Source of the DNA: Octopus vulgaris
Taxonomy: Eukaryota
NCBI GenBank assembly: GCA_951406725.2
Contig: OX597816.1
Location: 46,438,001-46,502,000 of the forward strand
Length of the DNA stretch: 64,000 bases
Direction of reading: 5' to 3'
Shown here: piece after piece, positions 15,997 through 19,070 of the stretch
How the letters are laid out: each line of letters starts with the position of its first letter
Position numbering within the stretch: position 1 is the stretch's first letter
The notes under the pieces: model-generated
Seen by the model: the letters and a program-made list of their open reading frames with translations, nothing else
Database searches by the model: none
Told to the model about the DNA's origin: nothing
Made by a program: the position numbers and the translations under genes

Positions 15997-18542
15997 TGCG
16001 CGTGTGTGTATTTGTGTATGCGTGTGTTTAATGTGAAGAATGTGTTAGTGCCGTAAAGAGGAGATAATTTCTCTTAGCAAAGCCTACGACGTAGGGATGA
16101 TATTTGATTTGCAACAGTTTATTCGCTTTTTATCCTTATGTTTCATTTACTTGAGACGGCTGACATGTTTCAGTCGCATAGTTTCATTTACAGGAAAACA
16201 AAAAGCGCGCGTGCGTATAAAACACTCGGAACATTTTGTATGTTTGCGTCAATAAGTTCATTGGATGCAGACATTTCCGAATGGTTTAGTAACTCGTTTC
16301 GCAAAAACGAAGTCCTACTTTCGATTCCCACTATGCGACACATTGAGCAAGTATTTCTGTCTCTCATAGCCTTTTAGGCGGTAATTCGAGGCTTGTAAGT
16401 GAAACTGACTCAACAGAAACCTTGTTGAAACTCGTTGGATTGAGTTTACTTGTAACTCAAAGAACCAGTTTTATCACACTGTTTATATCAAGATTACGAC
16501 AAAAGTACACGTGTCTGTGGTAGACGTGTCAGTCGTTTGAAAGAAGCAATGCTTTGTTGGAAATATTGTCTGGTACTGTACCTTTCTACGGCTAGACATA
16601 AAACTTTTGTAAGCTACTATTTGAAATGGCTCTTAGTCATCCATACCTTCTTGTTTGAACGTCAAATCAGAGGTAGATTAGTCTTTGTGTAACCCTTGAA
16701 AGCCCTTGGATTTTTGGAGTGATATGAGTAAAGGCGTTAATATCATATCACTAGCAGTATTTCACCTCAAAAGAAGTGTCAGGAGGTTTTTGGAAGCTAG
16801 CCGCTTTGATTATAATACAATGGGCAGCCAGCACTGTTAATCAGACAATTGGCTTTTTCACTGTCGAAACCGATGGATGATCTACTGATTCTGCTGTACA
16901 CTTCTCTTTACACATAAGCAATACCTATTTCTAATATAGATACAAAACCACATCTTTTGTGACAGTATGTTGAAGTCAATTATAACTACTCATTACTTAA
17001 AGGGTCTTCGGATTAATCGACCCCAGAAAGATGAAAGGCAAAGTTGAATCTGATCCCTATGGGATAAAAACTCTAAACGTAAATGAAAGCAAACTAAATA
17101 TTGTAAAGCATCATATTATGTCCACTGCCTTATCGATTCTGTCATTCGCCACCATATAGAGATAAACAATACGAAAAACAAAACTTTCATCTATGAAGTG
17201 ATCGATAAAATACAGTACCAATCATATACTAAGAATCACTTTAAAAATCTATAAATTTCACACACACACACACGCACATGCACACACACATACACACACA
17301 TTAAAAATAAAACAACCTTTGGCTTTGTATCTATGTGAAATAATGTTAAAAAGAGAACGAGGTGACTCAGAGGAAGAATGAAAATTAATACGACCATATG
17401 TAAAGGTCTCAATGAAATACTAAGCTTCTTAGTCATACGAATTATTCTACTTCTATGGCAACAAAATAAAATAGTATTTTATATCTTCTAATAATCTCTA
17501 TTATTGTTATTGTTAAAAATGCTGGAGTTAGAGTTAGCGTCACCGATATTAACTAACCTCGCTAAGTTCGGTGCAAAATGTTCTTTTTATGCGGGGACTA
17601 ACTTTATTTATTTGGGTCACAGGTAGTTTATTCTCCAGAAAAAAAGTGAAACTAAATTACGCTGAAAGTGGTGACAGCGAAATCCAATAATTTCTTTGCG
17701 CACGCGCACACTCTCACACACACACACACATACACACACATACGAACTGGGGTCAAAAACTATCCGTACTTTTGCCAAAACTTTCCTTAGCTTGGTTGCA
17801 CCGCCTTCAGTGCTCGCATGCTAAAAGGTTATCTAACAGAGGTCTGATCTTGATCGCCCCAGTTTTCTTTCTTGTGTTACAGAGTAAACAATTGCCGCTC
17901 CGCTTGCAGTGTACACCATAGAAAAACTGAAAATTGTGGACCGATTCCTCTGGTCTGAAGGTGTGTCGGAAACTGAAATTCATCGCAGGCTTTCAGTATA
18001 ATACGGGGACAGCGCTCTAACACGTAAAAGTGTGTATAAATGGATCAAGAAGTTTCAAAATGGTTGGACAAGCATCAAGCACGAAGAGGGATCAGGACGC
18101 CCAACAACCTCCAACACTGATTCAACAAACTCGAGAGATGTTTCTGGCCAACCGACGCGAGACCATCTATGAAGTGGCATGTTCTCTGCAAATTACTCAT
18201 GTCTCTGCGTATGAAATCATCCACAAGCTTCGCTTCTGTAATGACCTTGCGAACACCCGTGCCAAGGGTGCTAACCGAAGTACATAAAAGGGGTCTACAG
18301 TCACCAGCGTAGGCTAGTTAGCTGCTGGCCAACAGACTGAAACCAGCACTTAGCAGTAAACACCGAAGTCTATTGTCAAAGCGAGTGTTGTTGTCACAAC
18401 AATGCACGCCGACATACGGATACCAACATCGTTGAAACCGTTGGAAAGTTGGTTTTCGAGTTGCTGGGACACCCTGCATACAGTCCAGATTTCGTCCATT
18501 CCGATTATCACATCTTTGGACCGCTCAAACATCCTTTCCGAG

Positions 18543-18922
18543 TTCTATATATAAGAGATGAGGAATTGTGTACATTATTTACATTCAACGGATATTTGTC
18601 CTCATCTTGTTTGTTGTTAACACGTTTCGGCTGATATACCCTCCAGGCTTCTTCAGGTGTCTTGGGGAAATTTTGAACCTGCGTTCTCATTTATAAGGTG
18701 TTTTTCCATGTTGTCATTATTATCATTATTGTTGTTGTTGTTGTTATTGTCAGTGACCTGAACAATAATAATAATAATAACATCGAAAAATACCTTAGGA
18801 ATGAGAACCCAGGTTCGAAATTTCCCAAAGGCACCTGAAGAAGGCTGGAGGGCACATCAGCCGAAACGTTGTGTTAACAACAAACAAGATAAGGACAAAT
18901 ATCCGGCGAATGTAAATAATGT
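18543..18922. mobile_element. Palindromic hammerhead-bearing insertion with 12 bp TSD
   Basis: TSD atcctttccgag at 18531-18542 and 18923-18934; arms ~18571-18745 and ~18762-18923; interrupts the mariner transposase. Confidence 0.85.
18831..18874 (+). ncRNA. Minimal type I hammerhead motif
   Basis: gcac-CTGAAGA-a-ggctg..cagcc-GAAACGTT-gtgt. The inverted copy at ~18619-18661 lacks 3 nt at the cleavage site. Confidence 0.75.
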
Positions 18923-19070
18923 ATCCTTTCCGAGGTCATCGATTTGCTACGGACAAAGAAACACGGGAAGCGGTGCATAAATTACTGCGAGACCAGCTGA
19001 AAACCTTCTCCGACAGAATAAGCAAATTTGTGGACCGCTGGAAGAAGTGCATGGGAAAGCAAGGAAAGTA

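What the first reader, a model, noticed from the sequence alone, without database searches (positions are those of the whole stretch)
18531..18934. Non-coding palindromic ribozyme cassette shown to be a single insertion by its 12 bp TSD
Seen: 380 bp made of two inverted ~165 bp arms, each with a hammerhead region, an (AAT)/(GTT)-rich centre and a 28 nt one-sided tail. It is flanked by atcctttccgag on both sides, and removing it restores mariner KHPFR|GHRF. Inference: the fold-back architecture arises at integration, or the unit is mobile as such. It would be misclassified as a MITE. A decayed relative lies at ~24665.
Basis: partly seen in the sequence, partly recalled or inferred. Interest (0 to 1): 0.7.

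Follow-up and report, generated by a model that had tools for sequence, protein, structure and literature searches.

The report
Fold-back Penelope insertion, tRNA-type promoter family
This 380-base palindrome is one insertion of the broken-off ends of a common protein-coding jumping gene (a Penelope-like element), a known pattern; the unusual part is that the parent element's end repeat begins with a tRNA-derived sequence that likely acts as its promoter, so it may be read by RNA polymerase III.

Summary
Observation confirmed: 380 bp, two head-to-head arms, one-sided 28-nt tail, 12-bp duplication. Paralogous mariner copies and a related organism's contig show the empty site. It is not a defined mobile cassette and not non-coding in origin. 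The arms are pLTRs, including the first codons, of an autonomous Penelope-like element (835-aa RT/GIY-YIG-type ORF; 4,686 exact tail matches). Of 100 positionally sampled copies, 72 have an inverted partner, spans run 146-3,323 bp and TSDs peak at 12 bp: the published PLE insertion signature. Only the right hammerhead core is intact, and the two lie on opposite strands.

56 of 74 arms that reach it end there (about 8 times the background rate), a sister family keeps both boxes, and the 2.6-kb consensus has no T4 run (P 0.01-0.06). This hints at Pol III transcription, untested. I found no such PLE in the papers searched; the scan noted the same idea on other DNA (e1-8669850).

The parts
18531..18542 (.). 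left copy of the 12-bp target-site duplication
   Evidence: single copy at empty sites
18543..18570 (-). PLE 'tail' (28 nt), 3' end of the tailed arm; codons ~41-50 of the ORF
   Evidence: 4,686 exact matches of the family tail, control 0
18571..18712 (-). tailed arm: pLTR with ORF start codon at 18690 (minus strand)
   Evidence: tblastn aa 1-51 at 88% to the family ORF
18619..18661 (-). minimal type I hammerhead, broken (3-nt deletion at cleavage triplet, helix II mismatch)
   Evidence: arm alignment
18713..18750 (-). (AAT/AAC)n tract of the tailed arm; this arm is 5'-truncated here
18751..18763 (+). 3' remnant of the tRNA-derived head; the inversion junction, with about 3 nt microhomology
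   Evidence: matches the head's 3' end
18764..18779 (+). (AAT)n tract of the tail-less arm
18780..18922 (+). tail-less inverted arm with ORF start codon at 18801; ends at the family's usual tail-less point
   Evidence: aa 1-35 at 86%
18830..18875 (+). minimal type I hammerhead with intact core; predicted cut after 18870
   Evidence: sequence read against the min-HHR description in PMC4209133
18923..18934 (.). right copy of the 12-bp target-site duplication
17880..19100 (+). decayed mariner-type transposase gene, the insertion target
   Evidence: weak Pfam HTH_48 (Mos1 HTH) E 0.0055, below cut-off; paralogs at most 83% identical
24240..24790 (.). older inverted pair of a sister PLE family (arms 24240-24340 minus, 24650-24790 plus)
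   Evidence: TSD not tested

Best explanation
The 380 bp are a single, 5'-truncated and inverted insertion of an autonomous Penelope-like retrotransposon whose end repeat begins with a tRNA-derived head that likely sets the RNA's 5' end. Shown: the arms are the family's pLTR (head, (AAT)n, start codon, minimal hammerhead, tail); the palindrome's size varies from copy to copy; the target is duplicated by about 12 bp. Inferred mechanism: the GIY-YIG endonuclease cuts both strands about 12 nt apart, and each 3' end primes reverse transcription at one of two internal start sites about 30 nt apart (tail end, tail-less end), as measured in vitro for the anole element. The two cDNAs run toward the RNA 5' end, stop independently and are joined by microhomology. 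Because the start sites lie only about 260-300 nt from the head, most products are short and many end at the head. This copy stopped earlier and lost the promoter boxes, so it is predicted to be inert. Whether the head is a working Pol III promoter is inferred (about 60% for short RNAs, about 25% for the whole mRNA).
For: ORF link: copies run from RT and endonuclease sequence into head and arm, and arm plus tail run into the ORF start in 6 of 30 N-terminal loci. Consensus of 73 segments gives an unbroken 835-aa ORF starting in the arm. RVT_1 hits on pieces E 9e-4 and 0.035; a 738-aa relative (33% identity over the thumb/EN part) has RVT_1 E 6e-8 and GIY-YIG E 0.01. Variable geometry: 72 of 100 positional copies have an inverted partner, spans 146-3,323 (median 495); 65 of 72 inverted arms end at arm position 141-152 versus 174-178 for tailed arms; TSD of 11 nt or more (up to 1 mismatch) in 44 of 72 versus 4 of 569 shuffled pairs, mode 12. 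Loose ends pile at 18541 and 18571 in all four runs laid. Paired arms share non-CpG variants at 0.0060 per site versus 0.0017 for shuffled pairs (max 0.0040 in 1,000; 51 pairs), as expected for one template. Head: profile of this genome's tRNAs hits only the head, E 7e-7; best single match tRNA-Arg(TCG), z 8.8, 0 of 300 shuffles; A box at +8, B box at +52. 5' ends: 28 per kb at head -30..+25 versus 1.0-3.4 per kb elsewhere. Sister family (about 75% identical) keeps both boxes with a different spacer.
Against: The GIY-YIG domain of this family was not detected by Pfam directly and no tree was built. The 5'-end hot spot coincides with a native hairpin at -16..+19, and 5' palindromes at pLTR ends are described for other PLEs (PMC3846280), so it need not mark a Pol III start. 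ARAGORN found no tRNA in 17 loci, and Rfam found neither tRNA nor hammerhead in the element. RNA reads (organism C, three runs) lie equally in both directions with no start or end pile-up. Shared arm variants could also come from gene conversion or same-age subfamilies. 28 of 100 copies showed no inverted partner within the 1.5-3.5 kb read, and 28 of 72 pairs showed no TSD of 11 nt or more. The sample was picked by an exact tail match and comes from one chromosome.
Confidence: 0.9

Rival explanations
1. The palindrome is a defined non-autonomous element (MITE-like or a ribozyme cassette) that moves as a unit.
For: Terminal inverted arms, small size, TSD length fairly constant at 11-13 bp.
Against: No constant span or centre among 72 inverted copies; arms are the ORF start of an RT-encoding element; one-sided tail; hairpin buries the hammerheads; no promoter boxes left in this copy.
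Confidence: 0.03
2. The arms are a separate tRNA-headed SINE that borrows the PLE machinery, with its own master copies.
For: tRNA head, (AAT)n and PLE 3' part look like a SINE; 56 of 74 arms that reach the head end there; a 240-bp tandem array of head plus hammerhead exists (L101/L120).
Against: The head is built into ORF-bearing copies right behind the stop codon. 27 of the 30 best head matches have the arm downstream. ORF-linked (61) and head-start (73) arms do not differ in variants after correction (176 sites, smallest p 0.004).
Confidence: 0.12
3. Same PLE insertion, but the second arm is made by fold-back self-priming of one cDNA, and the head is a passively captured SINE fragment; the hot spot comes from the local hairpin or a Pol II start.
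For: Many junctions at the head are perfect palindromes around the -7..+10 hairpin; arms share variants; self-priming is proposed in PMC3846280; D. virilis Penelope has a LINE-like internal promoter (PMC2377424, abstract). A-rich LINEs here have only about 1 T4 run per kb, so zero in 2.6 kb has about a 6% chance.
Against: In many pairs either arm can be the longer one and the junction joins unrelated positions; the second arm ends at a fixed second site flanked by the TSD, which fits two primed strands; A and B boxes persist in a sister family while the spacer changed; several non-palindromic junctions also sit at -3..+2.
Confidence: 0.35

Closest known systems
EN+ PLEs of the Penelope/Poseidon type: Adineta Pen2a/Pen2 (PMC3846280, passages), Poseidon_Ac (PMC11167929, parts 1-2 of 4), scheme in PMC8557442 (passages)
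   Same: Single ORF of about 840 aa starting inside the pLTR; inverted 5'-truncated pLTR; 30-40 nt one-sided tail between two RT start sites; short TSD (8-10 bp in Adineta, about 12 here); both strands cut and extended in vitro.
   Different: The pLTR here begins with a tRNA-derived A/B-box head and (AAT)n; the papers read describe TATA/Inr-like or LINE-like promoters. Clade placement was not tested.
Minimal type I hammerheads of metazoan PLEs (Cervera and De la Pena 2014, PMC4209133, parts 1-2 of 4)
   Same: No helix III, palindromic 15.2/16.2, unpaired base before helix II, short helix I; the paper already notes paired motifs 100-700 bp apart on opposite strands.
   Different: Helix II is 5 bp here (7-8 in the Schistosoma families); cleavage untested.
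Schistosoma SM-alpha SINE-like repeats (as reviewed in PMC6765202, passages; primary paper not read)
   Same: Pol III-type promoter followed by a hammerhead.
   Different: Described as non-coding SINE-like repeats; here promoter boxes and hammerhead are the end repeat of a protein-coding element.
Helenus/Ajax/Cassandra, TRIMp3 (Kojima 2024, PMC10886601, passages)
   Same: Small-RNA-derived promoter inside a terminal repeat.
   Different: Non-autonomous LTR elements under 1.3 kb; the paper argues their autonomous partners must use Pol II.
Animal non-LTR retrozymes (PMC7229834, passages; bioRxiv 10.64898/2026.07.22.740005, part 1 of 5)
   Same: Hammerhead repeats proposed to derive from pLTRs; locus L101/L120 is such a 240-bp tandem array of this pLTR.
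   Different: Direct tandems; the window element is an inverted pair and cannot release a unit-length RNA.

Membership tests
EN+ Penelope-like element | single ORF with RT and C-terminal GIY-YIG endonuclease | tested here: met
   835-aa consensus ORF; RVT_1 weak hits; relative with RVT_1 and GIY-YIG. Own GIY-YIG recognised only by recalled motif and that relative. The window copy holds only the first codons.
EN+ Penelope-like element | pLTR containing the ORF start and a minimal hammerhead | tested here: met
EN+ Penelope-like element | inverted 5'-truncated copy and 30-40 nt one-sided tail | tested here: met
   72 of 100; ends at 145/151 versus 176-178
EN+ Penelope-like element | short TSD | tested here: met
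   44 of 72 versus 4 of 569; empty sites
Penelope/Poseidon clade | RT phylogenetic placement | not tested
   no reference PLE set available; assignment rests on domain order and recalled motifs
MITE | uniform length and termini, no RT origin | tested here: not met
   spans 146-3,323 bp; arms are ORF start of an RT element
non-LTR retrozyme | direct tandem units each with a hammerhead | tested here: not met
   window element is inverted; met only at L101/L120
tRNA-derived SINE | tRNA head with A and B boxes at the 5' end | tested here: met
   family level; the window copy keeps only 13 nt of it
tRNA-derived SINE | lineage independent of a coding element | tested here: not met
   head sits in ORF-bearing copies; no variant separation
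tRNA-derived SINE | transcription by RNA polymerase III | not testable with these tools
   standard RNA-seq uninformative
hammerhead ribozyme | self-cleavage | not testable with these tools
   core intact in right arm and 77 of 145 arms; no extra conservation after insertion, 0.930 versus 0.931

The most novel reading that the evidence does not exclude
This PLE lineage is an autonomous, protein-coding retrotransposon transcribed end to end by RNA polymerase III from a captured tRNA promoter. Its 2.6-kb sense strand is kept free of T4 terminators, the uncapped RNA is translated behind an (AAT)n leader, and every copy that keeps the head also yields short SINE-like templates.
Probability: 0.25. 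Interest if true: 0.8.

Novelty: new variant of a known kind. Interest (0 to 1): 0.42.

Why it matters
The finding as given is an ordinary, if clean, example of the PLE insertion signature, with an orthologous empty site; annotation tools could label such copies MITEs or SINEs. Two by-products have value. First, paired arms with a modal 12-bp TSD, two fixed 3' ends and shared variants are genomic support for both-strand priming from one RNA, a step left open by the in vitro work. Second, if the tRNA head drives transcription of the whole element, it would counter the stated expectation that autonomous retrotransposons need Pol II, and would show a route from a PLE to SINE-like and retrozyme-like offspring. 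That is testable with standard assays.

Tried and rejected
Rfam: no hammerhead or tRNA hit in the element at gathering score, in six loci at E up to 5, or on one head alone; ARAGORN 0 in 17 loci. Expected for a helix-III-less hammerhead and a decayed head, so not taken as evidence against. Pfam and PDB on the family's endonuclease piece: nothing. No RNA holder was listed on record. RNA reads of organism C gave equal directions and no start or end peaks, uninformative because thousands of copies are read through and strandedness is unknown. Search for T-runs in the Poseidon_Ac supplement found no sequence text, so no outside PLE control. A count of 67 T4 runs in ORF pieces was traced mostly to flanking DNA (48 outside, 19 inside aligned parts). 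Attempt to collect enough sister-family copies for a consensus failed: the DNA search returned the main family and the exact pattern gave 7 hits. Hammerhead covariation across three families: core boxes kept, loop changed, no clear compensatory pair, and the stretch is also coding; one automated extraction recovered only one sequence. Separate SINE lineage: rejected for lack of variant separation. Look-up of earlier findings by sequence gave nothing. No tree and no structure prediction were run.

Full report
1. Observation. The insert is 18543-18922 (380 nt), framed by a 12-mer found only at 18531 and 18923 in the window. The arms align at 145 of 160 columns, and removal restores an open mariner frame. 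The host is a decayed mariner-type transposase (weak Mos1 HTH hit). Eleven of 11 paralogous mariner copies inspected carry the 12-mer once. A contig of run X19 (organism C) joins 18530 to 18923 at about 95% identity, far closer than any paralog (at most 83%), so it is read as the orthologous empty site; X15 and X17 hold the filled left junction. The single-insertion claim therefore holds. The genome is a 2.8-Gb animal assembly, probably an octopus (my guess from recall).

2. What the arms are. The arm has 2,310 first-look candidates and the 28-nt tail 4,686 exact matches, control 0. Walking upstream through copies leads from the (AAT)n tract into a 77-nt tRNA-like head, a short UTR and an RT/endonuclease ORF. 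Walking downstream of the tail in full-length copies leads into the ORF's N-terminus (6 of 30 loci). A consensus from 73 segments (mean 91.5% identity; coverage as low as 2 at places) is 2,634 nt with an unbroken 835-aa ORF whose start codon lies at arm position 23 and which runs through hammerhead and tail. Pfam support is weak on the pieces (RVT_1 E 9e-4 and 0.035; GIY-YIG not found), but a 738-aa relative has RVT_1 and a weak GIY-YIG hit. This is the layout of EN+ PLEs: Adineta Pen2a has 842 aa, a pLTR holding the first codons, a 31-bp tail and a 9-bp TSD (PMC3846280, passages).

3. I took the first 100 exact tail matches by position on contig C1 (one was already held). 72 have an inverted partner within the 1.5-3.5 kb read; spans are 146-3,323 bp, median 495. 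65 of 72 inverted arms end at arm position 141-152 (peaks 145 and 151), tailed arms at 174-178. TSDs of 11 nt or more with up to one mismatch occur in 44 of 72 (one lies in a TA microsatellite) against 4 of 569 shuffled pairs; the mode is 12. So the fold-back is made anew at each insertion. Craig 2021 (passages) describes the inverted 5'-truncated copy and one-sided tail; Cervera 2014 (parts 1-2) already reports opposite-strand hammerhead pairs 100-700 bp apart.

4. Hammerhead. The motif fits the minimal type I description (Cervera 2014). The right arm's core is intact; the left lacks the cleavage triplet. In the sample 77 of 145 arms keep the core, and core positions decay like their neighbours (0.930 versus 0.931), so there is no sign of selection after insertion. 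Core boxes persist in two sister families while the loop changes, but there is no clear compensatory pair and the region also codes. Either strand of the 380-nt RNA folds into one hairpin of about -222 kcal/mol; with only one sense hammerhead per strand the dimer cannot form in cis. The window copy is predicted to be inert.

5. Mechanism. Frangieh 2024 (parts 1-2 of 4) showed for the anole PLE that both target strands are cut and extended and that RT starts at two internal sites that bound the tail. Applied here (inference): two nicks about 12 nt apart each prime a cDNA, one from each site; the cDNAs truncate independently and join by microhomology (about 3 nt in the window). In 51 pairs the two arms share non-CpG variants 3.5 times more often than shuffled pairs (0.0060 versus 0.0017; maximum 0.0040 in 1,000 shuffles); at the main polymorphic site 43 of 45 pairs with T or A on both sides agree; the window pair shares two variants. 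This fits one template, but gene conversion or same-age subfamilies are not excluded, and fold-back self-priming (PMC3846280) remains a rival.

6. The tRNA-derived head. A profile of 26 distinct tRNA sequences of this genome (8 anticodon labels only) hits the consensus once, at the head (E 7e-7). The best single match is tRNA-Arg(TCG) (z 8.8, 0 of 300 shuffles); the parent tRNA is uncertain given the partial set. A and B boxes (patterns recalled) lie at +8 and +52, as in tRNA genes. ARAGORN and Rfam do not call it. It is not free-standing: 27 of the 30 best matches have the arm downstream. Of 172 arms, 63 end within the arm, 35 in or at the (AAT)n tract (set aside) and 74 reach the head; 56 of these end at -30..+25, 28 ends per kb against 1.0-3.4 elsewhere. 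Finer mapping gives a spread of -7..+5 and a second group at +12..+25, partly due to microhomology. One full-length copy starts at the head (L200), and a tandem array of 240-bp head-plus-hammerhead units exists (L101/L120). A sister family about 75% identical keeps both boxes with a 10-nt longer, different spacer, seen in a handful of old copies. Against a promoter reading: a native hairpin spans the same place, and 5' palindromes are known at pLTR ends.

7. T-runs. The consensus sense strand has no run of four T in 2,634 nt: P 0.008 (base shuffle), 0.06 (dinucleotide), 0.03 (synonymous codons). Copies have 0.61 per kb, near the 0.44 simulated for decay of a T4-free master, and no site exceeds 18%. 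One sister-family copy has none in 940 nt (not independent). Controls: Dong/R4-like LINE consensus segments have 6 runs in 5,367 nt (partly overlapping), and a different PLE in the window has 6 in about 540 nt. At the LINE rate, zero in 2.6 kb has about a 6% chance, so this is suggestive only. RNA reads did not help. ORF-linked and head-start arms do not differ in variants after correction, so I do not call the short copies a separate SINE.

8. Literature. Seven searches listed no paper on a tRNA or Pol III promoter in a PLE; I judged from listings and the passages named, and Repbase and subscription journals were not searchable. Nearest: Schistosoma SM-alpha (review passages, PMC6765202), TRIMp3 elements (PMC10886601, passages), retrozymes (PMC7229834, passages; bioRxiv 2026, part 1 of 5, supplements not seen). 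The D. virilis promoter is LINE-like (PMC2377424, abstract). A 2026 octopus repeat annotation (PMC13282606, passages) lists Penelope families without mention of hammerheads; its library was not seen and may contain this family.

9. Verdict. The window feature is a real but ordinary PLE insertion (confidence 0.9). The family is a new variant by its tRNA-derived pLTR head. Whole-element Pol III transcription is the bold reading (0.25). Interest 0.42.

Noticed in passing
window 43650-45330: Young, near-perfect fold-back of a different PLE (GIY-YIG piece on both arms, weak Pfam hit) inserted in (TA)n; used as a T4 control (6 runs per arm).
   Followed up: partly
L101 684-1731 / L120: Tandem array of 240-bp units (tRNA head, short AAT, hammerhead, tail-less end): four full units plus a partial one; a retrozyme-like derivative in which hammerheads could dimerise.
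   Followed up: partly
L012, L013, L016, L025, L173 and others: Young Dong/R4-like LINEs (name from recalled motif; zf-RVT hit) sit in or next to the (AAT)n tract of this PLE's pLTR.
   Followed up: partly
window 24240-24790: Older inverted pair of a third PLE family; its centre has a B-box-like word near 24481, so that family may also carry a head.
   Followed up: partly
window 60321-60393: tRNA-Arg(TCG) gene; the best match to the PLE head among the tRNAs sampled.
   Followed up: yes
window 17619-17683 and 19749-19813: 65-nt inverted pair, 75% complementary, about 2 kb apart, enclosing the mariner remnant; possibly ends of another DNA transposon.
   Followed up: no
window 25081-25480: tRNA-headed SINE copy typical of this genome (recognised from recall).
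   Followed up: no
L181 3339-5548: 2.2-kb copy in which the tail is on the short inverted arm and the long ORF-bearing arm is tail-less.
   Followed up: partly
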